Shown here: positions 3,826 through 48,295 of the stretch, in pieces
How positions within the stretch are numbered: position 1 is the first letter of the stretch
How the letters are laid out: every line of letters starts with the position of its first letter
IMG/VR virus record: IMGVR_UViG_3300044832_000053
Location: 1-64,000 of that record
Strand: one strand, 5' to 3'
DNA from: a virus
DNA: 64,000 bases
Program-made: the position numbers and the translations under genes
Notes under the pieces: generated by a model
The model's input: the letters and a program-made list of their open reading frames with translations, nothing else
Databases searched by the model: none
Told to the model about the DNA's origin: nothing

Positions 3826-4307
3826 GCGGGCCGGTGATCGACAGATTCACGGGTGAGTACCACTTCCTGTCCAACTTCGCTGCCACCCCGTTCGAGATGC
3901 CCGGGATGGCGGGCGGCCTGGTCTGGCCGACCGCCGAGCACTGCTACCAGGCGGCAAAGTCCCCGACGCTGACCGGGATGGAGATGATCCGCAACGCCCC
4001 CACGCCAGCCGCAGCCAAGGGGATGGGCCGGGCCGCTGAGCTGCCCGCTGGCTGGGACCGGGTGAAGAAGACGGTCATGATGCAGATAATTCTGGCCAAG
4101 TTCAGCCGCAACCCGGAGCTGACCGCGATGCTCTGCGCGACCCGGGGCCGGGAGCTGATTGAGGGCAACACCTGGGGCGACGACTACTGGGGCGCGGTCC
4201 AGGGCGGGGCACCGCCGATGTGGCACTGGGGCCATGGCTGGTACGGGAACAACTGGCTCGGCCGGATTCTGATGATGGCCCGCGACGTCATGGACCCGCT
4301 GGCATGA
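3822..4307 (+). CDS. NADAR (YbiA-like) family hydrolase
   Basis: FLSNF, WPTAEHCYQAAK, AKF..NPEL, LIEGNTWGDDYWG, GNNWLGRILM. Confidence 0.92.
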   Translation: MSGPVIDRFTGEYHFLSNFAATPFEMPGMAGGLVWPTAEHCYQAAKSPTLTGMEMIRNAPTPAAAKGMGRAAELPAGWDRVKKTVMMQIILAKFSRNPELTAMLCATRGRELIEGNTWGDDYWGAVQGGAPPMWHWGHGWYGNNWLGRILMMARDVMDPLA

Positions 4308-4519
4308 GCAGCGGATACCTGCTGGTAATCAGGCTGTCCCGGCCGTTCTCCGGCACCGAGATCGTGGAGGAGGCCGGGCTGATCACCATCCCGTTCGCGG
4401 ACGAGGAGTCGGCTGCGGCGGCGATGCACACGACCAGGCTGTCGGTGGAGGCTGCTAGACCTCTGACTATCCCCGGCGAAGTGGTGAGGGAAGAAGATCA
4501 TGATCCAGGAAGGCAGTGA
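4304..4519 (+). CDS. Hypothetical protein
   Basis: ATGA overlap with NADAR stop. Confidence 0.45.
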   Translation: MSSGYLLVIRLSRPFSGTEIVEEAGLITIPFADEESAAAAMHTTRLSVEAARPLTIPGEVVREEDHDPGRQ

Positions 4520-35121: not shown

Positions 35122-35613
35122 TCAGAAGATCCGCACTCGTGCGAGGCGGAAGGTAGCGCCACCGATCCCGCCGATCGCCTGGTTGAGCATGGCGGCGGAC
35201 ACGCCGCCGGGGTGCACGCAGCGTCCGACGACCTGGTCGAACGTGCCTGCGCCTACCACAACCAGGGTTCCGTTGGCCCCGGCTACCACGAGCGATCCCT
35301 GCGGGACGGCCCCGGAGTACCAGGCCCAGATGTCCACCCCGCCGAAGTAGACCGGCACGTAGTCCTGGAGGACCGAGATGTCGATCAGCGGCTGGCCGTA
35401 GGTGTTGGGTGCGCCGGTCTGCGCGGCGAGCACGTTGCCGTCGGCCCCGGCGATGCCGAGCGCGAACTTGGTGCCCGCTGCGGCTGGCTTGACCGTGAGG
35501 TCAGTGGTCGGGTTGGTGACGGTGGTGTACTCGACAAGCTGGCCGCCGAAGATCAGCGTGCTGACCTGCGCGTTCTGTGGTCCGGTCTTGTAGTGCGGAA
35601 GCGTTCCGGGCAT
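35122..35613 (-). CDS. Capsid decoration/cement protein
   Basis: Gly-rich beta protein between scaffold and capsid genes; GGQLV, ALGIA..D. Confidence 0.7.
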   Translation of the reverse strand: MPGTLPHYKTGPQNAQVSTLIFGGQLVEYTTVTNPTTDLTVKPAAAGTKFALGIAGADGNVLAAQTGAPNTYGQPLIDISVLQDYVPVYFGGVDIWAWYSGAVPQGSLVVAGANGTLVVVGAGTFDQVVGRCVHPGGVSAAMLNQAIGGIGGATFRLARVRIF

Positions 35614-35860: not shown

Positions 35861-37078
35861 TCAGACGCCCGTCTGCTGGCGGTAGCGGGCCACCAGGGAG
35901 GCCCGGCCCTGGTGGGCGGCGGCGGCGTCCTCGCCAGGCTCGGCCCCGAGGGCGGACCCCAGCTCGTTGCCGAGGTCCAGCATCTTGGCCATCTTCCCGA
36001 ACTCGGAGAAGATCTGGCGGACGATCGCGCCCGCGTCCACCTCGGTGCCGTTGGACAGCTCCACGGTGCGCCCGGTGCCCTCCAGCAGCGGCCGGGCCAG
36101 GTCGCAGATGTAGGGCGCGATGCCGTAGGTGGCCATGAACCCGTGGCGCTCGGTCTCGTACCGCTGGGCGTCGAGCTGGTCGGTGACCGCACGGAGCTGG
36201 CGCTCGTTCTCCTCGCTCCGGGCGTTGGCCAGCTCGATGGCGAGCTGGGCGGACCCCGAGAGCTGGGCCCCGGCCCCGGCCTCCTGACCGGCGAGCAGCT
36301 CCGCGAGCTGCTCGTCAGACAGGGGACCGCTGTCGGCCGGGCCGTCGAGGGCCTCGGCTGCGGCGATCAGCTCGGCCAGCTCCTCGTCGGTCAGCTCGGC
36401 GTCCGCCGCCGGGCCAGCCGTGGGACCGGCCGGTGGCGTGGTGTCGAGGCTGGCGATGAGCTTATCCATCTTGTCGTCGGGAACGTCCAGGAGCCTGGCC
36501 AGCCGGGCCTGCTGCTCCGCGTTCAGCTCGGGCATCATGTCTCCTTCTGAATCGGGAGCGTCAAACGTGGCGTCGGAAAGGTCGATGACCGGGAGGTCAT
36601 CGTTGGCAAGGTCCACCTGCTGCCACGGCCCGAGGCCAGGCAGGCGGGGGTCGAGGGTGCCGAGGACGTGCTGGATGGCGGCCGGGAAGAACTGGCCGTC
36701 GGCGCGCTGGTAGTCCTCCACGATCCGGGCACTCACGCCCAGCCGTGGGTTGTCCTTGAGGATCTTGGAGCCCTCGTCCGTGGTGGACAGGGTGAGCCAG
36801 AGCCCGTCGGGCTCGGCGGTCATGGCGGCTACTTCCCCGCCGAAATTGCGGACATCGTTATTGTGCTTGTTGTCCGCCGACGCGAGCTGGAAGGGCACCT
36901 GGCCATAGGCCCGCTGGTGGAATGTCTCAGCCAGCCCGGCCAGGTAGTCCGCCGTGAAGTCGATCTTGCGGCCCTTGTAGTCGATGGAGCCCACCGGCAG
37001 CACCCGCTTGCGCCAGAAGCGCGGCCCGGCGACCCTGGCCGGGGAGCGGGTGTACGGCGTGAGGACGGCGGCTGTCAC
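35861..37078 (-). CDS. Mu gpI-like capsid maturation protease with C-terminal scaffold
   Basis: LPVG.I, KH, DGLW, GVSARI, HVLGTLDPRLPGL; acidic helical C-terminus. Confidence 0.82.
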   Translation of the reverse strand: MTAAVLTPYTRSPARVAGPRFWRKRVLPVGSIDYKGRKIDFTADYLAGLAETFHQRAYGQVPFQLASADNKHNNDVRNFGGEVAAMTAEPDGLWLTLSTTDEGSKILKDNPRLGVSARIVEDYQRADGQFFPAAIQHVLGTLDPRLPGLGPWQQVDLANDDLPVIDLSDATFDAPDSEGDMMPELNAEQQARLARLLDVPDDKMDKLIASLDTTPPAGPTAGPAADAELTDEELAELIAAAEALDGPADSGPLSDEQLAELLAGQEAGAGAQLSGSAQLAIELANARSEENERQLRAVTDQLDAQRYETERHGFMATYGIAPYICDLARPLLEGTGRTVELSNGTEVDAGAIVRQIFSEFGKMAKMLDLGNELGSALGAEPGEDAAAAHQGRASLVARYRQQTGV

Positions 37079-37710
37079 GAGCTGCCCCCGAAGCTCTGGG
37101 CCCGGCGGGCGAACGCCAGCGCGCGGGCGGCGGGCATCTTCTTGATCAGCTTCTTGTAGATGGCCACGCCCTTGGGATTCAGCCCGGCCACGGACCCGCC
37201 GGAGTCCGAGCTGCCCGAGTCGTCGCTGCCGGAGTCGGTGGTGCGCGGCCCGTCCGAGGATGAGTTCGCCGCCGTGGCCAGGGCGATGGCCCGGTGCTGG
37301 CCATTGGAGAAGGTCTGCACGGCCGGGATGCCGAACTGCCCCATCAGGGGGGTCTGGACCGCCCGGGGCTGCACCTCGCTCGGCGGGCGGCTCACCTCCT
37401 GGTTGTGCGTCCCGATCAGCTCATACAGCGCGGCCCGCTGCTGGGTATGCGGGCTCAGCACCCGCTCCCCGAGCTTGCCCGCGTACCTGCCGTCCGCGAG
37501 CTTGATCATCTCCCCGATCTTCTGGCCAGCCCGGCGGTGCACCACGATGGCCCGGCCATCAGCACCCCGGGTCACGTGCAGGTCGAACGGGGAGGTCACC
37601 TTGGTCCGTCCCGGCTGGGACCTGGCCCGCTGCCCGGCAGTCATCGAGCGGACAATCGCCGCCCTGCTGGCACTATCCACGACAGAGCCTCCGTTATCCG
37701 GCTGGTTCAT
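37075..37710 (-). CDS. Hypothetical head-region protein
   Basis: Coupled to protease gene; basic C-terminus. Confidence 0.7.
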   Translation of the reverse strand: MNQPDNGGSVVDSASRAAIVRSMTAGQRARSQPGRTKVTSPFDLHVTRGADGRAIVVHRRAGQKIGEMIKLADGRYAGKLGERVLSPHTQQRAALYELIGTHNQEVSRPPSEVQPRAVQTPLMGQFGIPAVQTFSNGQHRAIALATAANSSSDGPRTTDSGSDDSGSSDSGGSVAGLNPKGVAIYKKLIKKMPAARALAFARRAQSFGGSS

Positions 37711-37868
37711 TCGCCCTCCCCGGCCACGGCCCGCCTGACCAGGTCATCGGCCATCTTGGCGGCCAGGTCAGTGGCCATTCCCTTGCTGATGAGCAGTTTC
37801 CCCAGGATCTCGGTCGCCCTGGCCTGCTGGTCGTCCGTGGCGTCTGCGGCCCGGGGCAGGGGAGCCAT
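37707..37868 (-). CDS. Small hypothetical protein
   Basis: 53 aa; overlaps both neighbours; hand-translated. Confidence 0.5.
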   Translation of the reverse strand: MAPLPRAADATDDQQARATEILGKLLISKGMATDLAAKMADDLVRRAVAGEGE

Positions 37869-38425
37869 CACAGCTTCTTCGCGGCGTCGGTGAGTTCCAT
37901 GATCACTAGCGGGCCGAACGAGGCACCCAGGCCCAGCAGGAGCGGAGCGCCGAACGTGGTGGCCAGGGCAACCAGGATCGCGGCGGCCACGATGGTCCCG
38001 ATGTGGACAGCGAGCTTGATCCGGGCCTTCCTGGCTTCCTTCTCGGCAGCCAGCCTCTCCAGCTTCTGCTTGTCCATCTCGATCGCAGCGAGCTTTTTCG
38101 CCACGTCTGAGGCATGTGCCTCGCGGGCGGCTTCCTCGGCCCTGACTTCCTTGAGGACGGGGGCCTGCATGGCCGTGATGGCTATCAGGGACTGGAGCTG
38201 TGCCGCTCCCTGGGCCCTGGCAGCCTGGCTGGCCATGGCAGCGCGCGGGGTTGAGCCGCCCTTGATCCAGCGGCCGTGTGAATCCCGCAGCTCCAGTTCC
38301 ATCTGGGCCAGCTCAATGGCTTCCCGCTCTGTCTCAAGAACGTCAACAGCCATGAGAAACGGGAGGCCAGCGGCGGTGAGGGTGCGGAAATCACGGAGCT
38401 GTCGCTGCGTGATCTGCGTGGGCAT
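37868..38425 (-). CDS. Membrane protein carrying the IELA...ELRDSHGRW tag
   Basis: Tag, then coiled coil, then two C-terminal hydrophobic helices. Confidence 0.7.
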   Translation of the reverse strand: MPTQITQRQLRDFRTLTAAGLPFLMAVDVLETEREAIELAQMELELRDSHGRWIKGGSTPRAAMASQAARAQGAAQLQSLIAITAMQAPVLKEVRAEEAAREAHASDVAKKLAAIEMDKQKLERLAAEKEARKARIKLAVHIGTIVAAAILVALATTFGAPLLLGLGASFGPLVIMELTDAAKKL

Positions 38426-38464
38426 CAGTGGTGACCCTCTCACTTGATCACTGATGCTACGCGC

Positions 38465-38737
38465 CTAGCCTGCTGTATGCATGCCCACAGAAGCGGCAGT
38501 AGCCAGGACACGGTACTGATCTGCCGTGATCCGGCCCGCGTTGAATGCCAGCTCGACCTCGTACCATGATCCTTCACCGGGCCACGGGCGTCCAGTCAGA
38601 TCGCTGGCAATTGTCTCGTGATACCCGGCCGCCGGGGTGGTCTTTTCCCAGCTCAGGTGCGCGAATTTCACCGCTGCCTCAGCCAGGTCCATGTTCCCCG
38701 AGGTCAGGGCATCAAGGATGTCCCTCACATTGCCCAT
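38465..38737 (-). CDS. Small helical protein, candidate antitoxin to the zeta domain
   Basis: Overlaps the end of the zeta-containing ORF; function inferred from position. Confidence 0.55.
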   Translation of the reverse strand: MGNVRDILDALTSGNMDLAEAAVKFAHLSWEKTTPAAGYHETIASDLTGRPWPGEGSWYEVELAFNAGRITADQYRVLATAASVGMHTAG

Positions 38738-41700
38738 GAGAACTCCAGGCCCTGGCCGGAGCTGGACACGAGCTGCGGCTCGCGGCCGGTCACGGAGTTG
38801 TCGAACTTGTCCCAGGAGTCGAACAATGGCAGGGCCATGGCGAATGTCATCTCGTTCACCGAGATCTCCGGGTCTGAGGTTCCCCAGATCTTCACGATGT
38901 CCGCCGGGGGGACATGCCGCCCGCCGAGCCCCTTGCCCGCCAGCCAGCTCTCCAGCCCCGCGCGGTAGCGGGCCAGCGCCCGGTCGATCGAGACCTGGAG
39001 CGGGACGTCAACATAGACGCCGTGCACATGCCCGTAGCCAGCCGACCGCAGCCGGGCGATGTGCCCGGCCATGTCATCGGCCGGGAGCATGGTCAGGTCC
39101 ACGATGATGTTCTTGCGCATCGCCATCGAGCGGTCCAGCGCCATCTGGGCCAGGTGATGTGCCTCGTCGCTCACCAGCGGGCTGGCTTCCATGGGTGACA
39201 GGTTCCCGACGTGGGGCACCAGCCCGCGCTTGGCCAGCTCGGCCTTGAAATCATCCGGGGCGATGGGCAGGTAGTCGTCCATGTTCATGCCGGGCAGCTT
39301 GCCCAGTGCGGTGGTCTTGCCCGCGCCTGGCAGGCCGCCGCCGAAGATCGCCCGGCCCCCGTTGGGCACTGCGGCCGAGCGCGCCATGACCGCGTCGATG
39401 ATCTCCTTGTGGATCGCGGCGCGCTCGGGGGTGTAGATCTGCCCGTCCCCGCTCACGGACTGGGTAACCGCCGTGTTCTGCCCGGCCGCGAAGGCGTCAG
39501 TCAGGGTCTGCTCCACTACGTGCTGCCGTCCCGTGAACTCGGCGTCCGTCAGCGGCCGGGCTGCCTGGCCGCTGATCCCGTGCGCGACCGTGGGTGATTC
39601 CTCGTAGTCGAGGTTGTCGTCTTCCTCGTCCCAGCGGTGGGTGTAGGCGGACGGCGTGATGTACGGGCCAGCGGAGATCAGGCCCTTGTCCCCGGCCGGG
39701 GGCGGCCCGGCCTTGACCGGCTTCCAGCCGTGCGTGTAGACGAAGGGCGTGCCCGGGATGTGACGGCCATGGCCGTCGCCGGTCAGGTCTAGCTGGGCGC
39801 TGACCGTGGCAGTGCCGCGACCGAGTCCGCCAGGGCCCGTGCGATCTCCAGCCGCCTGGCCTCCGGCAGCTCGCGATAGCTGGACGGGACCGGCCCCGCC
39901 ACCACCTTGGGCGTGGGCTCCGCTGGCTGCTCCACCGCTACCTCCTGCCTGGATCTCCCGGCCGCCGGTCACGTCCCAGATAGCCGCCTGGCCGCGCTTC
40001 CTGCCCTCCGCGAGCGCCTGCTCCCGGCTGGCAATGTTGTCGCTCGGCTCCAGCCAGAGCTTACCGTCGTGCACCCATCCGCCCAGGTAGGTGTCTTTCC
40101 CGGCGAACGCCTGGTGCTCGCTCATGATCATGCCGTCAATGGCACGGGCCAGCTTCTCCCGGTCATCGAGGATCTCAGCCGGGAAGGTGTGCGTGTGCCC
40201 GGCCTGGGCAACCATGAACCCGCTGGCTGGCTTGCCGCCGGTCCGCATGCTGACCGAGAATCCTCCCCGGTTCTGCGCGGCCGAGGCTGCCTTGCTGCGG
40301 ATGGTGAACGGGCCGGGCCGGGGCGGCCCGGGTGAGGGGCGGAACATGCCCGCGATGGCCTGCTGCATCCGGGGGGGTTCCCCGCTGGGCAGGTTCACCC
40401 AGCGGCCCCGGAAGTCACGGGGCTCGTGAGCACTGAACGCCAGGTCGATGCCCGCTGCCTGGCCGCTCAGTGTGGTAGTCCCCGGGACCACCGGAACGTG
40501 ATGGGCAGCGGCGAACTTCTTCCAGATCCCCCAGTCCCGGGCGGTGTTGGCGGTGCGCCCGCGCTCCCGGGCCGTGACCGCTGCCGCGTCGGCCGCCTGG
40601 TTGGCGGCCTGCTGGTGCAGCCAGGTGATCGCCTGGAGCTGGGATGGGGTGACCAGGTGACCCTGCCGGGACAGCTCCGCAGCCGCCAGCCGGTAGGTGT
40701 CCGCGACGTGCTCGTAGTAGCGCTTGTCCCCGATGGGCGAGGCGTCGATCTCCTCCGTGGTCACCCGGTGCCCGGCCGCGACGGACAGGGCGTGCCGGTC
40801 AATGACCACCTGGCCGAGCCGGTCGGAGGATGCGTCCCCGCCGTGAGCGATCAGCTTCGCGAACGCCCGGGTCTTGGGGGACTTGAGGGCGTCGATACTG
40901 CCGGTGTCCATGGCCCGCTGCGCGGCCCGCTGCTCGGGGCGGCTGATGAAGCCCTCACCGGGGCCCAGGGCGCGGCCCAGCTCCAGCGAGCGGGCCGCGT
41001 TGAACAGGTTCTCCGGCCAGTTCACCTGCGGGGAGAACGCGGCCAGCACCGCCGCGCCCTTCTCCGCATCCCCGCCCGCGATGGACCGGGCCACCATCTG
41101 TGCGTCGGCGTACCAGCGCATCCCCTGGGCCTTCTCAGCCGGGGCAGCCGCGCTGTAGGCGGCAACGATGTTCGCCGGGCTGACCGGCACCGACTTGAAG
41201 AACGGGTGATCCGCCGGGCTCACGATGGAGCTGCGCGGGTTGGCCAGCCGGGAGGGGTCCGGGGCCGCGTACTCATGGCCGCTCACGCTCCACCGGCCAT
41301 GAGGGTCCCGCAGCTCGGCGGGGTTGTAGTGCCAGCCGCCCGCCAGGTCAACGCTGAACTCCCGGAACTGGCCCAGCGCCACCCGGTCCGCGTGCGTGTA
41401 TCCCTTCACCGGCTTGTAGGAGTGGATGAACTCCGGGGGCAGCGGCTTGCGGATCGCCCGGTATCCCATGTGGCTGGTGCTGGGATACAGGAACTCAGCT
41501 TCCCTGGCCTTGGGCACCCGGATGTCGATCAGCATGCCCGGCTTAGACGGCCATTCAAGATCATCGTGCCGCTCGTACGCGACGATCTGCGACTCGTTGC
41601 TGTCTGGGGACAGCACTGGGTCGTACCCGTCATACCCGGCTGCGTGCAGGCCCTGGTCCCGGATCGACCGGGCGGCCTCCGGCGTGGTGCCGTGGAAGAA

Positions 41701-43980
41701 CTGGGTGTAGCTGGACGGGTCAGCCTCCGGCCCGCCCCGGGTCCACTCGCCATGCTCGTTGCGCAGCTCGTGCACCCAGTTGCCTGCGCTGGGCCTGGGG
41801 CTGGGGCTGCCGGAATCCTTCTTATTCCACCAGCTCAGCTCAACACTGAACTCCCCGCCGCCGGGTCCCAGCTCACCGGCCCGCTCCATCATGTCCGAGT
41901 ACCACATCTGGTGACCCAGCCGCTCGAACTGGGGCTCCAGCTTGGCCAGCTCCGCCCGGATCTTGTTGGCGTAGTCCTGCGGGATGTTCGAGGGCTCCTC
42001 ATTCCAGAACGTGGTAGAAGCCGCGCCATCTCCGGCATATATGAAGCCCGAGCTGTTGTCGATGGCCACCGGGCTGCCGGACGGGGTGACCATCCAGTTA
42101 TTGGAGTGGCGGTCCGGGTTCTGGATCAGGAAGTCCAGCAGCCCGATCTTCTGGCCGTCCTCTGACTGGGTCAACTCGCTCTGGGCTCCGTAAGGTGCAT
42201 CAGCCAGGTACCGCGAGGCGGTCGTGCCCGGGACAAAGCCCATGACCTCCTCAGCAGGATCACCCCCGCTGACGCGGGCGATGGGCGGTGAGGGTGCCCC
42301 GATGGCCTGGGCGACGTAGTAGGCCAGCTCGTCGGTGTCCGCCATCTCCTCATAACCGGAGTGGTAGATCTTGTGCACCACCTTCTCGCCATTGGGCAGG
42401 GTCACGATGTCCACATTGCCCTGGACCCCCTGCTGAGGGTGCATGGACTCGCCCTCTGCGAGCTGATCCGGGGTAGCGATCTGCTCCAGGTGCTGTACGG
42501 CCGGGCTGGACGGTCCCAGCCCTCCCGGCTGCGGCATGCCCGGCAGCAGGTATTGCTTGACGCCCGTCGTGACCATCACCCCGGGGGCGGTCTGCCGGGG
42601 AGGCTCAGGCAGTCCCGCCAGGATCTTGGACGCCGGGACCGGGGTGCCCAGCAGGCCGTTGACCCGCCTGACCAGTTCAGGTCCGGCCTGGTACTCCCCG
42701 CCCGCGACAAACTGCCGGGCAAGCTGCTGGGCCCGGCCCTCGTTGATCGCCTGGTGCCGCTCCGCTCCTGCGGCGCGGGCGGATACCCGGTGCTCCATGA
42801 CCGCAGCCCAGGTCTGCCCCTGGATACTGGGCGGGATCTGGGATAGCTGCTGGGCCTGGAGGACGTTACCCCCGTTCCGCCAGTCCACCAGGTAGCGGTT
42901 CCCGTCATCGGATTCGACCACCACGTTGCTGCTGGTCATGGCGGTGACCCGGCCTACCCCGCCATGGCCGTCGCGGGCCATGTCCCCGAGCTTCGGCTCC
43001 CGGTTGCCGGGCAGGAAGGCGGCCCCGGCCCCGCTGCCGTGCGGGCCGATGAATTCCCACTGCTTCCCGCCCGGGGATGGGCTGGGCGTCTCCGCCTGCG
43101 GGTTGAATGCGGGCCGGGGCGTGCCCATCTTCATCCCGCCCAGTCGCGGGCCAGCCTGGCTGAGCGGGACGGTGTGCACGGGGGCACCACCGTTGCGCCA
43201 GTCCACCAGGTGACGCTTCTGGTCGTTGGCGTCGATCACCGCATGGCCGCCGCCTTTGTTGACGACCCTCCCCCAAACGCCCTGGCTGTTGCGTGCCTGG
43301 TCATTGACCTGCGGCTCCGCCACTACCTGGGAGCCACCCCGGATGAACTGCCAGCGGCCGAGGATCGCGGGCCCGGCGACCTCATCCGCCAGCAGCGCCC
43401 GGTGCAGCCTGGATTCCTGGTTCAGGGCACTTACCTGGGCAGCGGTGCCTGAAACCTGCCGGAAATCAGCACCGTGCACGGGCTGGAGCTGGGCCGCGAC
43501 CGAGTCCGGTGCCTGGCCGTGTATTCCCGGGTGTGCGCCCCGGATGATCTGGCCCTGCTCATCCACTGTCCAGGTGTCGAGATTCTCCCGGCGGTTGTTG
43601 TGCTGGACCCGCCGCAGTCTCTGGGCGTTGACCAGCCGGTCCTCGCCTATCTGATCCCGGATCGACTCCGGCCCCATCCCACGGGCCCGCAGGACCCGGG
43701 CCCGGTTAATCTCCGCCCCGTCGCGGAGGCCCTTGGGGGTCGGGGCCTGCTTCATCCGGTCTGCCCGCTCCTGGGCCGCCGCCGCGTCATGCTTGGCCTG
43801 CCACATGATCCCGTTGATGGCGGTCGGGCCGTAACCCCGTGCCGCGAGTGCAACGCGCTTGCGCTGGTCCTCCAGGGCCGTGGCGGAGAATCCGGGCCTC
43901 TTCGCCCAGCGCCCGTGGGTGTCACGGAGCTGATTGGGCTGGAAGTGCCAGGCCAGGTCCACCTGCTCGCTGATGCTCAC
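38725..43980 (-). CDS. 1751-aa polyvalent effector protein: tandem SH3/KOW-like, PI3/4K-HipA-like kinase, ART-like, HhH glycosylase-like (DUF7178-like), unknown domain, zeta toxin
   Basis: DFLIQNPDRHSNN..IDNS; FFHGT..AARSI..QGL; WY..AAFSPQ..PKT..IDRHA..QAITW; GGLPGAGKTT..PDDFK..GRHVP. Confidence 0.85.
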   Translation of the reverse strand: MSISEQVDLAWHFQPNQLRDTHGRWAKRPGFSATALEDQRKRVALAARGYGPTAINGIMWQAKHDAAAAQERADRMKQAPTPKGLRDGAEINRARVLRARGMGPESIRDQIGEDRLVNAQRLRRVQHNNRRENLDTWTVDEQGQIIRGAHPGIHGQAPDSVAAQLQPVHGADFRQVSGTAAQVSALNQESRLHRALLADEVAGPAILGRWQFIRGGSQVVAEPQVNDQARNSQGVWGRVVNKGGGHAVIDANDQKRHLVDWRNGGAPVHTVPLSQAGPRLGGMKMGTPRPAFNPQAETPSPSPGGKQWEFIGPHGSGAGAAFLPGNREPKLGDMARDGHGGVGRVTAMTSSNVVVESDDGNRYLVDWRNGGNVLQAQQLSQIPPSIQGQTWAAVMEHRVSARAAGAERHQAINEGRAQQLARQFVAGGEYQAGPELVRRVNGLLGTPVPASKILAGLPEPPRQTAPGVMVTTGVKQYLLPGMPQPGGLGPSSPAVQHLEQIATPDQLAEGESMHPQQGVQGNVDIVTLPNGEKVVHKIYHSGYEEMADTDELAYYVAQAIGAPSPPIARVSGGDPAEEVMGFVPGTTASRYLADAPYGAQSELTQSEDGQKIGLLDFLIQNPDRHSNNWMVTPSGSPVAIDNSSGFIYAGDGAASTTFWNEEPSNIPQDYANKIRAELAKLEPQFERLGHQMWYSDMMERAGELGPGGGEFSVELSWWNKKDSGSPSPRPSAGNWVHELRNEHGEWTRGGPEADPSSYTQFFHGTTPEAARSIRDQGLHAAGYDGYDPVLSPDSNESQIVAYERHDDLEWPSKPGMLIDIRVPKAREAEFLYPSTSHMGYRAIRKPLPPEFIHSYKPVKGYTHADRVALGQFREFSVDLAGGWHYNPAELRDPHGRWSVSGHEYAAPDPSRLANPRSSIVSPADHPFFKSVPVSPANIVAAYSAAAPAEKAQGMRWYADAQMVARSIAGGDAEKGAAVLAAFSPQVNWPENLFNAARSLELGRALGPGEGFISRPEQRAAQRAMDTGSIDALKSPKTRAFAKLIAHGGDASSDRLGQVVIDRHALSVAAGHRVTTEEIDASPIGDKRYYEHVADTYRLAAAELSRQGHLVTPSQLQAITWLHQQAANQAADAAAVTARERGRTANTARDWGIWKKFAAAHHVPVVPGTTTLSGQAAGIDLAFSAHEPRDFRGRWVNLPSGEPPRMQQAIAGMFRPSPGPPRPGPFTIRSKAASAAQNRGGFSVSMRTGGKPASGFMVAQAGHTHTFPAEILDDREKLARAIDGMIMSEHQAFAGKDTYLGGWVHDGKLWLEPSDNIASREQALAEGRKRGQAAIWDVTGGREIQAGGSGGAASGAHAQGGGGAGPVQLSRAAGGQAAGDRTGPGGLGRGTATVSAQLDLTGDGHGRHIPGTPFVYTHGWKPVKAGPPPAGDKGLISAGPYITPSAYTHRWDEEDDNLDYEESPTVAHGISGQAARPLTDAEFTGRQHVVEQTLTDAFAAGQNTAVTQSVSGDGQIYTPERAAIHKEIIDAVMARSAAVPNGGRAIFGGGLPGAGKTTALGKLPGMNMDDYLPIAPDDFKAELAKRGLVPHVGNLSPMEASPLVSDEAHHLAQMALDRSMAMRKNIIVDLTMLPADDMAGHIARLRSAGYGHVHGVYVDVPLQVSIDRALARYRAGLESWLAGKGLGGRHVPPADIVKIWGTSDPEISVNEMTFAMALPLFDSWDKFDNSVTGREPQLVSSSGQGLEFSWAM

Positions 43981-44198
43981 GGGTGCACCCAGACGTACCC
44001 GTTGCTCCAGCCGTCCAGGGACTCGAACGCGATCTCCGCATCACCGCCAGCCCGGCGCAGCGCTGAGTCCGCGATGGCCTGGCTGGACTCGCTGCTGCCG
44101 GTCAGGCGGTCCGTGTCCAGCCTGATGGTGCCGAGCTGGCCCTGCTCATCGAAGACCCCCAGCGTCAGCGGCTCACCGGCCTGGCTGGAGATGCTCAC
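43977..44198 (-). CDS. Small acidic protein
   Basis: GTGA overlaps at both ends; starts MSISSQ like the giant ORF (MSISEQ). Confidence 0.65.
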   Translation of the reverse strand: MSISSQAGEPLTLGVFDEQGQLGTIRLDTDRLTGSSESSQAIADSALRRAGGDAEIAFESLDGWSNGYVWVHP

Positions 44199-46114
44199 AG
44201 CTTGCTGGCCGCGAAAGTGAGCTGGGCGGCCTGGGTACGGAGCTGGGAGATCTGCTTGCGGACCGCCAGGATACGGCTGGTCAGGTTAGCCGTGGCACTG
44301 GCCTTCGTGGTCTTGGACGCGGCCCTGGTCACGGCCTTCTTCGCGCTCGCGGCCGTGGTCTTCTTCGAGGTGGCAGCCTTCCTCGCCGCTGCCGCCGTGG
44401 TCTTCTTCGACCCGGTGGTGTGCTGCTTGGTGTGCGCCGCGTGCTGGGCCCTGAGCTGTGCTTCCAGCCCCTTGAGAACGATGGACAGTGCGTTGGCCTT
44501 CTGCCGGTCCGCCTTGGCCCGGGATAGCAGCTTGCGCTTCTTCACCTGCTTCGAGCCCCCGGCCGGGGCCGCGCCACCCGCGCCCCAGGTCCCGCCAGCG
44601 GTCCGGGGCTCAGCCGGGTTGAATCCGGCCAGCTCGACGGACTCATACCACTCATTGGAATGGCTGGAATCCTGGGCATGAGCCCGTGCGGACATCGAGG
44701 CCAGCCCGGCCAGGGCCTTCACCGCAGCCGCCCTGACCTCGGGGTGCACGCTGCCGCCTCCGGCCGCCCACTTGCGGATCGAGCCCCAGGTGATCGCCGT
44801 GGCCGACCCCTCGCTGTGCCCGGCCCGGATCAGTGCGTTGCGGACGTTCTGGAAGTAGGGCGGGAACTCCATGCCCTTGACGTGGTAGGCCCCCGGCCCG
44901 CCTGGCTTCCCGATCGGGGCGGGCGTGACCGCCAGCCGGGCGGTGTCGGCGGACATCTCCAGGGCCTGGGAACTGATGGTTGAGTACCCCTGCGGAGGGG
45001 GTGCCTGGGTGTGGGCAGCCATGGAGTACGGGGCGGTCATCCCCGGCCCGGTGACCCGGTAGTCATGAGTTATCGCGCCCACCCCGGCGGGCACGCCTGC
45101 CAGGCTGGCGCGGACCGCCCGGACATCCTGGACCGCCAGCGGGCTGGTGTGCCGGGCGGCCCACTCGGCCGAGTCCAGCGCCTTGCGTGCGTGCCCCATC
45201 TTGCGCATCGCGGTGAACCGGGCGGCGGCGCGCATCGAGGTGCGCAGCATCTCAGCCGCCGGTCCGGGACTTGCGTTGTTGCGCAGCTCGCCCTGGGGCT
45301 GGTACTTGTCACCGACGCCCTCGATGGCCCGGATATGCGAGAACCCGCCGGGTGCACCGGAGTAGCTGAATGAGCTGTGCCCGCCCGGCCCGAGGACCCA
45401 CCGCCCGTCCGGGCCCCGGAGCTGGTCAGGGTGGAAGGCCAGCTCGATGCTGTAGTCCTGCTGGCCGGTGCCGGTTCCGTTCAGGTTCGCGATGTCAAAA
45501 CCCCCGGGCTGGTCCCCGGCCGCCCCGGGCCGTATCCCGCTGCCTTTCACGTCGGCCCTGGCCGCCGCCTGCTGGTCGCGGTACGCCTGGTTGGATGCCT
45601 CAGCGTCCTCGATGTCCTTGATCAGCAGGCAGTGCCGGTTGATCATGTCCATGTGCCGCTTGGCGTGGGCGTGCCCGTCATCGTCGGTGATGCCGTGCCG
45701 GTACAGCGACAGCGGGGCCAGGGTGTGCATCGCGGCGGCCAGGTGCCTCCCGGCCGACTCGGTCTTGCCCCGGTGCATCGAGTTCGCCGCGTCCCGCAGG
45801 TGATCCCCGACGCCCAGCTCGGGCAGCACCTGGTCGGTGCGATGGGCCACGCCCCGGATGGATGTGGCCACGGCCTGCTTCATGCCGCCGGTCGCGATCA
45901 GCCTGCTGCCTACGCGGCCAGGCGCACCAGGGTTGGCAGGAGCGGCGCTCCCCTGAACGGGGCCACCGGGTGGCACCGGCAGTGCGGGTGCACCGTTCCC
46001 GGGTACCCGATTGCCGGGGGGATTGCGGCCAGGAAGTTGCGGCCGTCCGCTGCCTTGCACTCGGGCGACGTCCGGGCGTCGTGTACTGACTGCCATCCGA
46101 GAACCTTTCCCCAT
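44195..46114 (-). CDS. Multi-module head-region protein with repeated tags and Lys/Ala-rich C-terminus (start uncertain)
   Basis: IELAFHPDQLRGPDGRW, VELAGFNPAEPRTAGGTW; 5' end overlaps MuF gene. Confidence 0.75.
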   Translation of the reverse strand: MGKGSRMAVSTRRPDVARVQGSGRPQLPGRNPPGNRVPGNGAPALPVPPGGPVQGSAAPANPGAPGRVGSRLIATGGMKQAVATSIRGVAHRTDQVLPELGVGDHLRDAANSMHRGKTESAGRHLAAAMHTLAPLSLYRHGITDDDGHAHAKRHMDMINRHCLLIKDIEDAEASNQAYRDQQAAARADVKGSGIRPGAAGDQPGGFDIANLNGTGTGQQDYSIELAFHPDQLRGPDGRWVLGPGGHSSFSYSGAPGGFSHIRAIEGVGDKYQPQGELRNNASPGPAAEMLRTSMRAAARFTAMRKMGHARKALDSAEWAARHTSPLAVQDVRAVRASLAGVPAGVGAITHDYRVTGPGMTAPYSMAAHTQAPPPQGYSTISSQALEMSADTARLAVTPAPIGKPGGPGAYHVKGMEFPPYFQNVRNALIRAGHSEGSATAITWGSIRKWAAGGGSVHPEVRAAAVKALAGLASMSARAHAQDSSHSNEWYESVELAGFNPAEPRTAGGTWGAGGAAPAGGSKQVKKRKLLSRAKADRQKANALSIVLKGLEAQLRAQHAAHTKQHTTGSKKTTAAAARKAATSKKTTAASAKKAVTRAASKTTKASATANLTSRILAVRKQISQLRTQAAQLTFAASKL

Positions 46115-46533
46115 CTGTAAGCCGCGCCGTCGATGGCCGACCCGGCCATGATGCGCCCCTGGTTGGCCTCGAAGTGCTGGCCGAAGTAGCGGGATTCGGT
46201 CTCGGCCAGCCGGTCAAGCGCCTCGGCACGTGGCTCGCCCCGGCTGGCGGCCCCGGCCAGGCCGTCCTGGATGCGGTGGGCGGCGGCCACGAAGAACGCT
46301 GAGCGCCGGGCGATGTTGGCGTGCGCAGCCCATCGGGTGGCCGGGCCGACGCCCTCGATCCGGTCAGGCGGGTAGCGGGTCTCGATGGCGATCACCGCGC
46401 GCAGCGCCGGGCCGCTGATGCCCGCGCCATGGAACGTCCCGGCGATCTGCGTGAAGATGCCAGCCGCCGACGGGTAGGCCGCGAACGCCCGCGCTGCGGT
46501 AAGCGCGAGCATGGCATCGCTGCGGGCGCTCAT
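45910..46533 (-). CDS. MuF (phage minor head / gp30-like) protein
   Basis: W.SVHDARTSPEC...G...PG.VHPHCRC; after portal. Confidence 0.85.
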   Translation of the reverse strand: MSARSDAMLALTAARAFAAYPSAAGIFTQIAGTFHGAGISGPALRAVIAIETRYPPDRIEGVGPATRWAAHANIARRSAFFVAAAHRIQDGLAGAASRGEPRAEALDRLAETESRYFGQHFEANQGRIMAGSAIDGAAYRWGKVLGWQSVHDARTSPECKAADGRNFLAAIPPAIGYPGTVHPHCRCHPVAPFRGAPLLPTLVRLAA

Positions 46534-46727
46534 ACCGGGTGGACCGTCCCGTCCCGGGCGAAGTGCTCGTCCACGGTGTGCCCGTACTCCATCGCGTGCA
46601 TCGCGGCGTCGTTGAGCACCCCGGGGATGGTCATGGGGTAGCTGGTGGTGCTGGCGGTCTCGGTGAAATCGCCGTCCTGGCAGGTCACGGTCATGGTCTC
46701 GGTTGAGTCGATCCTGATGGGGGTCAT
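46530..46727 (-). CDS. Small hypothetical protein
   Basis: ATGA overlaps at both ends. Confidence 0.55.
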   Translation of the reverse strand: MTPIRIDSTETMTVTCQDGDFTETASTTSYPMTIPGVLNDAAMHAMEYGHTVDEHFARDGTVHPV

Positions 46728-48292
46728 GCCATCTTCCCGGGTGGCGGCACCATGGGCGGCTTGCCCGGCGGCCGTGGCGGCCCGGCAGCACTCTGGCGCG
46801 GTGGCATCTGCCCGGGGGCGGGGACCTGGCCACCCGTGGCCTGGTGGGCGATGCCCAGCGCGGTGCTGGCCATGCCGTTGAGCGCGCCCACCCCGGCCAG
46901 GGCCGAGGGGGGCATGCCGGGAGGGGCCCCGGCGGCCCCGGCGAGCTGGGCGGCCCGCTGGGACGCTGAGTTGACCAGCGCGGTGTGCACCTGGTCGATG
47001 TCGAGCTGGAGGACCGAGGCCATCCGCTCGGCCAGCAGGTCCACGAACTCGATGGGGATGTGCAGCGCGGGGGCGGCGACGATCTGCCCGAACAGGGTCA
47101 GCAGCGCCTGGATCTGCTCGTCCTGGAGCGGCCCGAACTTGAACTTGGGGAAGGCGGCGTCGGGCCCGAAGTTCAGGATGATCATGGGAGCGATGACGTC
47201 GTGGCTGATCCACCCGGCCATCTCCTTGGCCACAGCCTGCCGGGACTTGAGGTAGAAGCTGGACTGGTCCTGGGACAGCGCGTAGCTTCCCTTGCCGCCC
47301 GTGGATGCCCCGGTCAGGCCCATGAACCCGGCCAGTACCGAGCCGATCTGCCACTGCTCCAGGAAGCCCAGGGCCTCCTTGAAGATCGCGCCGCCCTCGC
47401 CAGCCGCCGGGATGGTCTCGAACGACTTCTGGCCCGCCTCGGGATGGACCAGGCCCACCACGCCGGAGGACCGCAGCGAGGCAATGTCATCCGCGCGGGT
47501 GTTGGCCTCGGGCTGGTCATTGCCGTAGACGATCGTGCGCGGCAGGGCCAGGTTTTCGAGGTAGTTGTACCAGAGGAACAGCAGCTTCATCTTGGTCTGG
47601 TAGCACCAGTAGGCGATCTCCATCTCGCTGACCCCGACCAGGGGCTCGCGGTGGGTGCCGTGGGTGTAGATGGCGCTGCGGATCTTGGGGATGTCCACGT
47701 ACCCGGGGACCTTGGACTTGGCCTGGAGGGTGTTGGCCTGGCCGAACATCCACACGAGCTGGCGGAACCCGTTCGGGTTCCCGCTCCGCTCGTTGAACGC
47801 GCTCTGGCAGGTGGACGGCGGCCGGTAAGCGAGCTTGTCAAGCACCACCCGCTCGTCGCTGGCCCGGATCTTCCAGACCTTCTCGAAGAACGCCTTCTTG
47901 TAGATCTGCCCGGACGTGACCTGGCCGATGAACTGCTCGATGGGCGTCTGCATGCCGCCCTCGGTGTCCGGGGTCATCAGCACCGAGTTGGCCAGGTCGG
48001 CCTCGCCCTTGTCGCCCTTGGCGGGCTCGATGGACTGGTCAGCCTCGCGGACGGGCAGGGTCAGCACCATCTCGATGGCCGAGCACTGGCCATCGCGGCG
48101 GAACATGGTTTTCATGTCCCGCGCGCCCCACTCGCCATAGTCGAAGACGTCGCCGGAGCCGAAGTAGGCGAACAGCTTCTGGCCGTAGTCGAACGCGGTC
48201 CCGATCTCCGGGCCCATCAGGTCCCGGCGGTCACCGGGCTTGAGGTCGGGGAACTTGAGGATGCGGGCGGTGGACGGGTCGCGGGCTGCCAT
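46724..48292 (-). CDS. Portal protein (DUF935 / Mu gp29-like)
   Basis: FFEKVW, LAYRP, SVLAGF, GSYALS, I.P.I.LNFG..A.FP. Confidence 0.9.
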   Translation of the reverse strand: MAARDPSTARILKFPDLKPGDRRDLMGPEIGTAFDYGQKLFAYFGSGDVFDYGEWGARDMKTMFRRDGQCSAIEMVLTLPVREADQSIEPAKGDKGEADLANSVLMTPDTEGGMQTPIEQFIGQVTSGQIYKKAFFEKVWKIRASDERVVLDKLAYRPPSTCQSAFNERSGNPNGFRQLVWMFGQANTLQAKSKVPGYVDIPKIRSAIYTHGTHREPLVGVSEMEIAYWCYQTKMKLLFLWYNYLENLALPRTIVYGNDQPEANTRADDIASLRSSGVVGLVHPEAGQKSFETIPAAGEGGAIFKEALGFLEQWQIGSVLAGFMGLTGASTGGKGSYALSQDQSSFYLKSRQAVAKEMAGWISHDVIAPMIILNFGPDAAFPKFKFGPLQDEQIQALLTLFGQIVAAPALHIPIEFVDLLAERMASVLQLDIDQVHTALVNSASQRAAQLAGAAGAPPGMPPSALAGVGALNGMASTALGIAHQATGGQVPAPGQMPPRQSAAGPPRPPGKPPMVPPPGKMA

Positions 48293-48295
48293 CAC

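What the first reader, a model, noticed from the sequence alone, without database searches (positions are those of the whole stretch)
37868..46533. Candidate tagged-cargo system: a repeated cleavage plus packaging tag marks effector modules between MuF and the head protease
Seen: seven copies of a bipartite peptide in three separate genes. They are VDLAWHFQPNQLRDTHGRW (43906-43962), FSVELSW...WVHELRNEHGEW (41743-41853), FSVDLAGGWHYNPAELRDPHGRW (41290-41361), IDLAFSAHEPRDFRGRW (40399-40449), SIELAFHPDQLRGPDGRW (45398-45451), SVELAGFNPAEPRTAGGTW (44585-44641) and AIELAQMELELRDSHGRW (38267-38320). Each lies at or near a module boundary. Partial tags (LDLT, LEMS, terminal LEFS) mark other boundaries. 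The [IV][ED]L[AS] half also recurs in the protease/scaffold. Established: T4 and phiKZ head proteases cut cargo at short motifs, T4 internal proteins carry a capsid-targeting sequence, and MuF-linked toxins and polyvalent proteins are known. Inference: the prohead protease cuts at [IV][ED]L[AS], and the LRD..GRW peptide docks each module in the head or on DNA, so polyproteins are split into individually ejected effectors in a plug-and-play cassette.
Basis: partly seen in the sequence, partly recalled or inferred. Interest (0 to 1): 0.92.

Follow-up and report, generated by a model that had tools for sequence, protein, structure and literature searches.

The report
Repeated cut-site-plus-tag in phage cargo proteins
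An uncultured soil phage marks each enzyme module of its head-packaged proteins with a probable protease cut site plus a conserved 20-residue peptide, and that peptide also occurs, undescribed, in over a thousand families of giant phage head proteins.

Summary
All seven copies sit at the stated coordinates, and an eighth, degenerate copy follows LDLT. In the whole 78.9-kb virus record the tag occurs only in three head-module genes.

- Gene 35861-37078 encodes a prohead protease-scaffold. Its best structural match is T4 gp21 (Z 10.4). H72, S116 and H137 are invariant.
- The protease family keeps three h-[DE]-[LM]-[AST] sites. One, with invariant D-L, lies in the disordered linker after the protease domain.
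- In 79 related loci fetched through the protease alone, the tag occurs 112 times upstream of the protease and never downstream. 86% of distinct tags have the cut-site half 8-15 residues before them.
- Site plus tag are predicted disordered on both sides of a well-folded domain.

New here: the tag half, [FYW][DNS]Px[EQ]xRDx[HR]G[RE]W[TS]xGG, is not special to this clade. It matches 1,297 protein clusters, usually 2-9 copies per protein, beside MuF, portal, ADP-ribosyltransferase (ART), zeta-toxin and DUF7178 domains. No Pfam model, solved structure or searchable paper covers it.

Cleavage, loading and the tag's partner remain inference. Unchecked earlier notes of this scan describe similar tags on other DNA.

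The parts
46724..48295 (-). Portal protein (523 aa). It opens the head module, just downstream of the large terminase gene at 48296-49885.
   Evidence: PHROG portal phrog_113, E 5.5e-31. Terminase phrog_38 and phrog_2.
45910..46533 (-). Stand-alone MuF-like minor head protein (207 aa). It carries no tag.
   Evidence: Pfam Phage_Mu_F, E 3.3e-6, 28.2 bits against a cut-off of 29.6. TIGR01641 SPP1 gp7 family, E 7e-6. PHROG minor head and head morphogenesis families.
44195..46114 (-). Tagged cargo protein P0002. The ORF is 639 aa but the start is uncertain: it overlaps the MuF 3' end by 205 nt, and another ATG lies at 45883. It has two full site+tag copies, one site-only copy and a Lys/Ala/Thr-rich basic tail.
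   Evidence: No Pfam, PHROG or NCBIfam match.
45398..45451 (-). Site+tag copy (IELA ... RGPDGRW) in P0002; the R of the tag is residue 233.
44951..44974 (-). Site-only copy (S-S-Q-A-LEMS) in P0002. It has the cut-site half with its S-x-Q prefix but no tag.
44585..44641 (-). Site+tag copy (VELA ... RTAGGTW) in P0002. This is the most diverged tag.
38725..43980 (-). Polyvalent cargo protein P0001, 1751 aa. Modules in order:
- 26-712, with two SH3-like repeats and a PI3/4-kinase-like part
- 748-876, ART-HYD1-like (a lead only)
- 897-1177, DUF7178
- about 1195-1396
- about 1411-1744, zeta-toxin-like P-loop kinase
   Evidence: Pfam DUF7178 4e-37 (936-1121), Zeta_toxin 2e-14 (1544-1695), PI3_PI4_kinase 4e-5. 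phrog_17808 at 1261-1338. ESM Atlas lead Tox-ART-HYD1, score 0.90.
43906..43980 (-). N-terminal copy in P0001: a leader of about 8 residues (with I-S-E-Q), the VDLA site, then tag RDTHGRW (R19).
   Evidence: Two relatives (L006, L023) show the same layout at the start of their polyvalent ORFs; their exact start codons were not set.
41743..41853 (-). Site+tag copy with a long 27-residue spacer (VELS ... RNEHGEW, R740). It lies between the kinase-like and ART-like modules.
41290..41361 (-). Site+tag copy (VDLA ... RDPHGRW, R891), just before DUF7178.
   Evidence: AF2 pLDDT is below 50 over this stretch.
40399..40467 (-). Site+tag copy (S-G-Q ... IDLA ... RDFRGRW, R1188), just after DUF7178.
   Evidence: AF2 pLDDT is below 50.
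39751..39807 (-). Eighth, degenerate copy: S-A-Q-LDLT followed by G-D-G-H-G-R-H. It follows a Gly-rich stretch and precedes the zeta-toxin-like module.
   Evidence: LDLT lies at 39781-39792. Context read from the translation.
38737..38760 (-). Site-only copy (S-G-Q-G-LEFS), four residues before the stop of P0001. It overlaps the start of the next gene.
38465..38737 (-). Small 90-aa gene P0007. It overlaps the end of the zeta-toxin module and has a VELA site (38546-38557) followed by A-F-N-A-G-R but no GRW. It may be an immunity or partner protein.
   Evidence: No family match.
37868..38443 (-). Small tagged protein P0003 (191 aa): site+tag (38267-38320), then a coiled coil, then a hydrophobic C-terminus. 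Small tagged proteins sit at the same place in several relatives.
   Evidence: The 232-aa L006 counterpart has a similar C-terminus. Small tagged ORFs 1.4-2.4 kb upstream of the protease in L061, L065, L066, L084 and L124.
37075..37710 (-). Conserved 211-aa protein P0006 of unknown role, immediately upstream of the protease. It has no site and no tag.
   Evidence: No family match.
35861..37078 (-). Prohead protease-scaffold fusion P0005 (405 aa).
- Protease domain: residues 1-145 (36644-37078), with H72, S116 and H137.
- Disordered linker: 146-182, containing the V-I-D-L-S site (36575-36586).
- Helical C-terminal part with the IELA site (36227-36238) and the VELS site (36053-36064).
- The VDLA at 36605-36616 is not conserved.
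   Evidence: AF2 model with N-domain pLDDT above 90. Foldseek top hit T4 gp21 5jbl, E 6e-4, prob 1.0. VIA-align Z 10.4, rmsd 3.5 A, 130 residues aligned, then about 40 herpesvirus assemblins at Z 4.5-7.7. Family invariants. Site logos.
35122..35613 (-). 163-aa head protein (PHROG 'scaffolding' family) with a conserved P-L-I-D-[ILM]-S-V-L element (35374-35385).
   Evidence: phrog_673, E 8.6e-7. Conserved element in relatives.
34197..35108 (-). Major capsid protein (303 aa). Its N-terminal arm has a conserved L-I-L-D-[ML]-T (35007-35018, residues 31-34), which could be a maturation site.
   Evidence: phrog_1650, E 4.5e-68. Conserved element in 19 relatives.

Best explanation
The repeated peptide is a two-part junction that punctuates proteins packaged in the phage head.

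Part 1 (clade-specific, about 10 residues, [IL]-[ST]-x-Q-x-h-[ED]-L-[AGS]) is most likely the recognition and cleavage site of the phage's own gp21/assemblin-fold prohead protease. That protease is fused to a scaffold (35861-37078) and carries conserved sites of the same consensus.

Part 2 ([FYW][DNS]Px[EQ]x-R-D-x-[HR]-G-[RE]-W-[TS]-x-G-G) is a near-universal handle. It sits in a flexible linker at the front of each cargo module.

Proposed sequence of events:
1. The polyproteins (1751 aa and 639 aa) and a small tagged protein are built into the prohead next to portal, MuF and protease-scaffold.
2. The protease cuts itself, the scaffold and the cargo at part 1.
3. Each enzyme module (kinase-like, ART-like, DUF7178 glycosylase-like, zeta-toxin-like) is left free in the head with the tag at or near its new N-terminus.
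4. The tag then binds something common to many tailed phages, such as packaged DNA or the portal channel, so that the module is retained and leaves with the DNA.

Shown here: motif anatomy, restriction to head-cargo genes, position in disordered inter-domain linkers, the protease fold and invariant residues, shared site consensus, and the wide distribution of the tag.

Inferred: cleavage, the scissile bond, loading, and the tag's partner. The scissile bond could be after E/D, by analogy with T4, phiKZ and SPN3US, or after L, as in assemblin A|S sites.
For: Motif and its distribution in this genome:
- Seven full copies, one degenerate copy and two site-only copies, all in three head genes.
- Conservation is at protein level, with synonymous differences between copies.

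Clade-wide test independent of the motif:
- In 79 loci fetched by protease homology, with 429 kb on each side, there are 112 tags on the coding strand upstream of the protease, 0 downstream, and 5 and 2 on the opposite strand.
- 69 of 80 distinct tags have [ED][LMF] 8-15 residues upstream.

Position relative to domains:
- Tags precede DUF7178, Abhydrolase_8, Zeta_toxin and ART domains.
- In the AF2 model of P0001 870-1200, residues 1-31 and 305-331 (site plus tag) have pLDDT below 50, and the domain between has pLDDT about 90 with pTM 0.79.

Protease:
- Best fold match is T4 gp21 (Z 10.4), followed by about 40 assemblins.
- H72, S116, H137 and D143 are invariant in 36 homologues.
- V-I-D-L-S has an invariant D-L and lies in the disordered linker 146-182.
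- [IVL][ED][LM][AST] occurs 3.5 times per protease, against 0.35-1.0 for scrambled patterns.

Precedent:
- gp21-type proteases cut head cargo after short motifs, and a 10-residue N-terminal CTS ends in the cut site (PMC9026906; PMC10052503).
- P0001 starts with a leader of about 8 residues ending in the site.

Generality of the tag:
- 1,297 clusters at E<=1e-3, with 2-9 copies per protein.
- Of 30 hits scanned with Pfam, 6 have MuF; Portal_Mu, Peptidase_S78, ART, GNAT and Acb1 domains also occur among them.
- Tags also follow portal domains.

Upstream element varies with lineage:
- Outside the clade it is often K-[FY].
- Of the five tag-bearing records searched, one has an HK97-type S78 protease above the Pfam cut-off, and a second has only a sub-threshold match at 20.2 bits against 21.
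Against: - No experimental data exist: no cultured relative was found and no proteomics.
- The four-residue core of part 1 carries little information.
- Two of the three conserved protease-scaffold sites lie in confidently folded helix or strand. Their conservation may be structural.
- 11 of 80 tags lack the acidic residue.
- A site four residues from the C-terminus of P0001 and a site eight residues from its N-terminus are odd places for cuts, unless the leader works like a CTS.
- A polyprotein loaded before cleavage does not need one docking tag per module.
- The tag also occurs inside MuF and portal fusions, which are anchored already.
- No partner could be identified. MuF was not detected in one 88-kb tag-bearing phage.
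Confidence: 0.55

Rival explanations
1. The tag is the protease's docking site (exosite), or part of one long recognition sequence. In that case it serves processing only and has no role in loading or ejection.
For: - Site and tag are tightly coupled, with spacing of 8-15 residues in 86% of tags.
- The tag always lies on the primed side of the putative cut.
- All tailed-phage prohead proteases of this superfamily share a fold (PMC9026906), which could explain a tag shared across lineages.
Against: - The protease-scaffold's own three sites, and the site-only copies (LEMS, LEFS), have no tag.
- Outside the clade many tags have no recognisable upstream site.
- The tag-bearing phages appear to use different protease families, gp21-like here and S78 in at least one other record.
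Confidence: 0.15
2. The junction is mainly an evolutionary device. It would be a conserved, flexible boundary peptide that lets effector cassettes be swapped by recombination, like pre-toxin junction motifs of polymorphic toxins. It would have no specific binding partner.
For: - The tag-DUF7178-site-tag cassette is found as a separate gene, at different ordinal positions in polyproteins, and in a Bradyrhizobium genome.
- Module content differs between close relatives.
- Tags are followed by Gly-rich linkers.
Against: - Copies differ at synonymous sites, so DNA homology between copies is short and imperfect.
- R, G and W were fixed by the search pattern. The other positions are still strongly conserved in 594 copies from very different lineages (D 80%, E/Q 94%, F/Y 73%). 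That points to selection on the peptide itself, which a mere linker would not need.
Confidence: 0.12
3. The tag acts after ejection, inside the host. For example, it could hold each effector on the incoming DNA or on a conserved host machine, or set the life-time of the released module.
For: - The tag is shared by phages of Actinomycetota, Alphaproteobacteria and others. A conserved partner such as nucleic acid would fit.
- It is retained on the mature module if the cut is at part 1.
- If the cut is after E/D, the new N-terminus would be Leu, a bacterial N-degron residue. This rests on established N-end-rule knowledge and is my inference.
Against: - There is no direct evidence.
- Every occurrence examined lies in a head module. 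That is expected for any virion-delivered cargo and does not discriminate between the models.
Confidence: 0.12
4. Chance or compositional artefact of a GC-rich genome.
For: High-GC six-frame translations give many R...G.W strings: 41 unrelated ones in the window, and most of the 120 pattern hits in bacterial genomes were out of frame.
Against: - None of the 41 unrelated matches has the upstream site.
- 112 against 0 upstream versus downstream in 79 loci.
- 262 clusters at E<=1e-10.
Confidence: 0.01

Closest known systems
T4 internal proteins and Alt: capsid targeting sequence plus gp21 processing. Also the phiKZ and SPN3US inner-body and ejection proteins cut by gp21 homologues (PMC9026906, PMC10052503).
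   Same: - A prohead protease of the same fold (Z 10.4 to T4 gp21).
- A short site shared by the protease itself, scaffold-like proteins and ejected cargo.
- A leader of about 8-10 residues ending in the site at the N-terminus of the cargo.
- Cargo made of host-directed enzymes (ART in Alt).
   Different: - Here the site recurs inside polyproteins, so several enzymes would be released from one chain.
- A second conserved peptide follows the site and would stay on the product. In T4 the targeting peptide lies before the cut and is lost.
- The site consensus differs (h-[ED]-L-[AGS] against L/I-x-E or A-x-E).
- There is no sequence-level family match for the protease.
Polyvalent proteins of phages and conjugative elements (Iyer, Burroughs, Anand, de Souza, Aravind 2017, PMC5512222)
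   Same: - Multi-enzyme proteins encoded beside portal, MuF and terminase.
- Predicted to be packaged and injected.
- The same domain repertoire among tag-bearing proteins (MuF, ART-PolyVal, ADPrib_exo_Tox, GNAT, 2H/Acb1-like, Topo IB).
   Different: - Text searches of that paper for 'cleav', 'proteoly', 'linker', 'short motif', 'GRW', 'interdomain' and 'boundar' found no repeated junction peptide.
- It proposes processing by built-in metallopeptidase domains, not by the prohead protease.
- Here MuF is a separate small gene.
MuF polymorphic toxins of temperate phages (Jamet et al. 2017, PMC5576092)
   Same: - Toxin-like domains (ART, zeta-type kinase) linked to the MuF head gene.
- A small downstream gene that could be an immunity protein.
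- In one related viral contig the order is MuF, tag, ADPrib_exo_Tox in one protein.
   Different: - In the window the toxin-like domains are not fused to MuF.
- There are several effectors in a row rather than one variable C-terminal toxin.
- No junction motif is mentioned in that paper.
Herpesvirus assemblin maturation (R- and M-site) cleavage
   Same: - The same protease fold, with an H...S...H order of invariant residues.
- The protease is fused to a scaffold and releases itself at a site after the protease domain.
- The site pattern hydrophobic, polar, small-hydrophobic | small resembles V/L-x-A|S (from my own knowledge of assemblin sites).
   Different: - Assemblin processes only itself and the scaffold, not enzyme cargo.
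- Fold similarity is lower than to gp21 (Z 4.5-7.7).
Plasmodium PEXEL export element (PMC10653839; abstract seen). This is a functional analogy only.
   Same: A conserved motif is cut by a dedicated protease, and the new mature N-terminus then specifies where the effector goes.
   Different: It is an unrelated organism, protease and motif, listed only as a model for a 'cut, then the new N-terminus is the address' mechanism.

Membership tests
Phage polyvalent proteins (Iyer et al. 2017) | Two to fifteen distinct effector or enzyme domains in one polypeptide | tested here: met
   P0001 has a PI3/4-kinase-like part, DUF7178 (4e-37) and Zeta_toxin (2e-14), plus two further modules.
Phage polyvalent proteins (Iyer et al. 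2017) | Encoded in the virion (portal-terminase) gene context | tested here: met
   Gene order is TerL, portal, MuF, cargo genes, protease-scaffold, major capsid protein.
Phage polyvalent proteins (Iyer et al. 2017) | Packaged in the capsid and delivered with the DNA | not testable with these tools
   No cultured relative and no proteomics.
gp21 / assemblin-type prohead serine proteases | Herpesvirus-protease fold | tested here: met
   The AF2 model matches T4 gp21 5jbl at Foldseek E 6e-4 and VIA Z 10.4, rmsd 3.5 A, with 130 of 164 residues aligned. About 40 assemblin entries follow.
gp21 / assemblin-type prohead serine proteases | Conserved catalytic Ser and His residues | tested here: inconclusive
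   H72, S116 (in G-V-S-A-R-I), H137 and D143 are invariant in 36 homologues, in the H...S...H order. I could not superpose them on the gp21 or assemblin catalytic residues because no coordinates are returned.
gp21 / assemblin-type prohead serine proteases | Sequence membership in Pfam S77, S78 or related models | tested here: not met
   No Pfam, PHROG, NCBIfam or PDB sequence match, even at E<=10. It works like a gp21-type protease but forms a family of its own, with more than 746 metagenomic members.
T4-type capsid targeting sequence (CTS) system | Short N-terminal leader ending in the protease site | tested here: met
   In P0001 the leader is about 8 residues, then V-D-L-A. Two relatives show the same layout.
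T4-type capsid targeting sequence (CTS) system | The leader is necessary and sufficient for incorporation and is removed by the protease | not testable with these tools
   This needs packaging assays.
MuF polymorphic toxins (Jamet et al. 2017) | Toxin domain fused C-terminally to a MuF domain | tested here: not met
   MuF is a separate 207-aa gene. A fusion through a frameshift, suggested in another note, was not tested.
MuF polymorphic toxins (Jamet et al. 2017) | Cognate immunity gene directly downstream of the toxin | tested here: inconclusive
   A 90-aa gene overlaps the end of the zeta-toxin module, but it has no family match.

The most novel reading that the evidence does not exclude
The R-D-x-x-G-R-W peptide is a universal, portable address label of tailed-phage head cargo. 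After the prohead protease frees a module, the tag at its new N-terminus would bind a conserved virion component or the packaged DNA and decide whether the module is kept in the head and ejected into the host. The part before the tag would co-evolve with each lineage's protease: h-[ED]-L-[AGS] with the gp21-like protease here, K-[FY] with HK97-type S78 proteases elsewhere. If so, any protein could be loaded into, and delivered by, many phages by adding about 30 residues.
Probability: 0.3. Interest if true: 0.85.

Novelty: new variant of a known kind. Interest (0 to 1): 0.7.

Why it matters
Giant polyvalent and MuF-linked proteins are common in phage genomes and are thought to be injected counter-defence and takeover enzymes. 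How they are loaded, whether they are cut apart, and how they leave the head are all untested.

This locus offers a concrete, testable grammar: cut site, then tag, then module. It also supplies:
- a candidate protease and a defined set of substrates;
- a tag found in more than a thousand protein clusters, which no domain library, solved structure or paper I could search describes;
- a previously unclassified prohead protease-scaffold family with more than 746 members.

If the grammar holds, module boundaries in polyvalent proteins can be annotated automatically. The tag could also be used to load chosen proteins into phage heads.

Tried and rejected
- Cultured relatives: none by megablast. tblastn with P0001 found only single domains in unrelated early genes of mycobacteriophages. 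tblastn with a tag-rich protein and with a 26-aa tag gave nothing real; the phage Rey hit lies on the non-coding strand.
- Sequence-level protease identification failed in Pfam, PHROGs, NCBIfam and PDB profiles. Only the fold search worked.
- Literature: no hit for the motif strings, and none in the polyvalent or MuF-toxin papers.
- PDB profile search with the tag alignment gave only chance hits at E>0.2.
- MuF as the universal partner: MuF was found in only 1 of 5 tag-bearing records. Most of these are fragments, and one 88-kb record with terminal repeats lacks it. The result is inconclusive.
- The genome contigs pattern scan gave mostly out-of-frame noise. About 17 of 121 matches were real.
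- A self-cleaving Asn-Pro or Asp-Pro chemistry for the tag was considered and dropped, because the N/D-P pair is not conserved in all copies.
- Recent DNA duplication or gene conversion as the source of the copies was rejected on synonymous differences.
A larger test of upstream element against protease family could therefore not be run.
It was rerun with four-letter motifs.
- Co-folding the tag with portal, MuF, capsid or protease is not possible with the single-chain tool.

Full report
**Setting.** The window is the first 64 kb of a 78,925-bp IMG/VR virus record rated complete. GC content is about 0.69. No near relative exists among 50,697 cultured-phage records. The head module lies on the minus strand, in this order:
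- large terminase, 48296-49885
- portal, 46724-48295
- a small stand-alone MuF, 45910-46533
- a 639-aa ORF (P0002)
- a 1751-aa ORF (P0001)
- a 90-aa ORF (P0007)
- a 191-aa ORF (P0003)
- a 211-aa ORF (P0006)
- a 405-aa ORF (P0005)
- a possible 76-aa ORF, a 163-aa head protein and the major capsid protein

- Six frames of the window contain 49 R-x3-G-x-W strings. Only those in the three genes have [IV][ED]L[AS] within 32 residues upstream. These are the seven tags plus one overlapping match inside the spacer of tag 2. None of the other 41 has the site.
- In the whole record the tag occurs nowhere else. Ten of 12 [IV][ED]L[AS] sites in gene-like ORFs lie in the protease-scaffold and cargo genes.
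- The 'partial tags' are real relatives. LDLT follows an S-x-Q prefix and is followed by a decayed G-D-G-H-G-R-H, so it is an eighth copy. LEMS and the terminal LEFS have the S-x-Q prefix but no tag.
- Residues that are identical between copies use different codons about half the time. Selection therefore acts on the peptide.

**The neighbouring gene is a prohead protease, in a family of its own.** P0005 has no Pfam, PHROG, NCBIfam or PDB sequence match, even at E 10. It has more than 746 metagenomic homologues, all unnamed.
- An AF2 model built on 36 homologues gives a confident N-terminal domain (1-145), a disordered linker (146-182) and a helical C-terminal part.
- The N-domain matches T4 gp21 best: Foldseek E 6e-4 and VIA-align Z 10.4, rmsd 3.5 A, 130 residues. 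About forty herpesvirus assemblin entries follow.
- H72, S116, H137 and D143 are invariant.
- I read it as a protease-scaffold fusion. I could not superpose the catalytic residues.

**The family keeps three sites of the pattern h-[DE]-[LM]-[AST].**
- [VI]-[IL]-D-L-[ST] at 164-168, with D-L invariant, lies in the disordered linker.
- A-I-[ED]-[LM]-A-N at 280-285 is preceded by L-S-x-x-A-Q, which resembles the S-x-Q prefix of the cargo copies.
- [TV]-[VI]-[DE]-L-[SA]-N-G lies at 338-344.
- The pattern occurs 3.5 times per protease, against 0.35-1.0 for scrambled controls.
- Caveat: the second and third sites lie in confidently folded helix or strand. Only the first is a clean self-cleavage candidate.
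- Weak hints only: the capsid protein's N-arm has a conserved L-I-L-D-[ML]-T, and the 163-aa head protein a conserved P-L-I-D-[ILM]-S-V-L.

**Clade-wide test.** I fetched 79 further loci by protease homology alone, with up to 10 kb on each side.
- On the coding strand the tag pattern occurs 112 times upstream of the protease and 0 times downstream, over 429 kb on each side. The opposite strand gives 5 and 2.
- 69 of 80 distinct tags have [ED][LMF] 8-15 residues before the R. The others have near-variants at the same place.
- The first-half consensus is [IL]-[ST]-x-Q-x-h-[ED]-L-[AGS].
- The second half comes in two flavours: [FYW][NDH]Px[EQ]xRDxxGRW and W-R-D-A-W-x-x-E-x-R-G-P-H-G-E-W.

**Tags sit in linkers in front of modules.**
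- Pfam domains always begin after a tag. This holds for DUF7178 in P0001 and in four other proteins, Abhydrolase_8, Zeta_toxin and ADPrib_exo_Tox.
- The unit tag, DUF7178, site, tag is conserved end to end in more than 25 loci.
- In its AF2 model, site plus tag on both sides have pLDDT below 50. The domain between has pLDDT about 90 and pTM 0.79.
- The same cassette is a separate 611-aa gene in one relative and the second to fourth module of 1,800-2,100-aa polyproteins in others. This fits a plug-and-play array.

- A profile of 91 copies matches 1,297 clusters (50% identity representatives) at E<=1e-3 and 262 at E<=1e-10. Most are proteins of 500-3,849 aa with 2-9 copies.
- The 594 copies in the top 150 give the core [FY]-[DNS]-P-x-[EQ]-P-R-D-x-[HR]-G-R-W-T-x-G-G-G.
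- Thirty of these proteins carry MuF (6), DUF7178, ADPrib_exo_Tox, ART-PolyVal, GNAT, Portal_Mu, Peptidase_S78, Acb1 and topoisomerase IB, among others. They are the polyvalent proteins of Iyer et al. 2017.
- Tags also follow portal domains. Tags precede a REase toxin and a DUF7178 in Alphaproteobacteria genomes.
- Every context I examined is a phage head module.
- Outside the clade the residues before the tag are often K-[FY], not [ED]L[AS]. Of five tag-bearing records searched, one has an HK97-type S78 protease above the cut-off. A second has only a sub-threshold match. This hints that the upstream element follows the protease family, but the sample is tiny.

**Is it known?**
- T4's 10-residue CTS ending in an L/I-x-E cut site, and A-x-E cuts in SPN3US, are established (PMC9026906; PMC10052503).
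- Polyvalent proteins and MuF toxins are established (PMC5512222, PMC5576092). Term searches of those two papers found no repeated junction peptide.
- Motif strings give no hit in the library.
- No Pfam model covers the tag. No PDB chain contains it.
- Two earlier, unchecked notes of this scan describe tag-punctuated MuF polyvalent proteins on other DNA. I could not verify that theirs is the same peptide.

**Mechanism.**
- Most likely (about 0.55) the first half is the cut site of the gp21-like protease and the second half is a handle kept on each released module.
- By analogy with gp21, phiKZ and SPN3US, the cut would follow E/D. The higher conservation of L and the small next residue would also fit an assemblin-like L|A/S cut.
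- A tag per module is not needed for loading a polyprotein that enters before cleavage. I therefore favour a role after cleavage (retention or ejection, perhaps on DNA or in the portal channel). This is inference.
- Rivals: the tag as protease exosite; a junction kept mainly for cassette shuffling; a role inside the host. Chance is excluded.

Noticed in passing
window 40381-41373 (P0001 residues 870-1200); Pfam DUF7178: The DUF7178 module folds as an all-alpha domain. Its 22 best structural matches are all HhH-GPD-type base-excision enzymes or relatives: Ogg, MagIII, EndoIII, MutY, AlkA and queuine-salvage DUF2419, with Z up to 9.6. Foldseek alone found nothing significant. Some cluster-A mycobacteriophage homologues are annotated 'glycosylase'. 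This is the module most often flanked by tags.
   Followed up: partly
window 35861-37078 and 746+ homologues: The protease-scaffold belongs to a large, unnamed family with no Pfam, PHROG or NCBIfam model. It is found on 60-130 kb uncultured viral contigs and in Streptosporangiaceae MAG bins. It is a candidate for a new prohead-protease family entry.
   Followed up: partly
window 45910-46114: The 639-aa ORF overlaps the 3' end of MuF by 205 nt. An alternative ATG at 45883 lies 27 nt after the MuF stop, with only a weak G-rich stretch before it. Another first-stage note proposes a -1 frameshift fusing MuF to this ORF. I did not test it.
   Followed up: no
window 38465-38737: A 90-aa gene starts inside the last codons of the zeta-toxin-like module. 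It carries a V-E-L-A site followed by A-F-N-A-G-R, like the start of a tag, but no GRW. It could be an immunity or partner protein, or the remnant of a further module.
   Followed up: no
window 41854-43905 and 41362-41742: A PI3/4-kinase-like part (Pfam 4e-5; a weak TIGR03843 hint) is followed, across a site+tag junction, by a small module whose nearest ESM Atlas clusters are Tox-ART-HYD1 (score 0.90, a lead only). Earlier notes of this scan report a recurrent kinase-plus-ART pair in MuF polyvalent proteins of other genomes.
   Followed up: partly
L182 (uncultured proteobacterium MAG) 3990-5762; L026 4004-7462: Portal proteins carry the tag in a C-terminal extension after the portal domain. 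In L182 the next ORF carries a tag as well.
   Followed up: partly
loci L093, L095, L101, about 400 nt upstream of the protease; window 37075-37710: The conserved protein just upstream of the protease has its own R-[ND]-D-x-G-x-W-like turn. This matched my tag pattern by accident and is not a tag. The window's copy reads K-L-A-D-G-R-Y at that place.
   Followed up: no
window 44195-44560: The C-terminal 120 residues of P0002 are a Lys/Ala/Thr-rich basic low-complexity tail followed by a short helix-like end. It has the look of a DNA-binding tail.
   Followed up: no
window 3000-4900, plus strand: The only two [IV][ED]L[AS] sites in gene-like ORFs outside the head module lie in one 622-aa ORF (3259, 3406). 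I did not identify this ORF.
   Followed up: no
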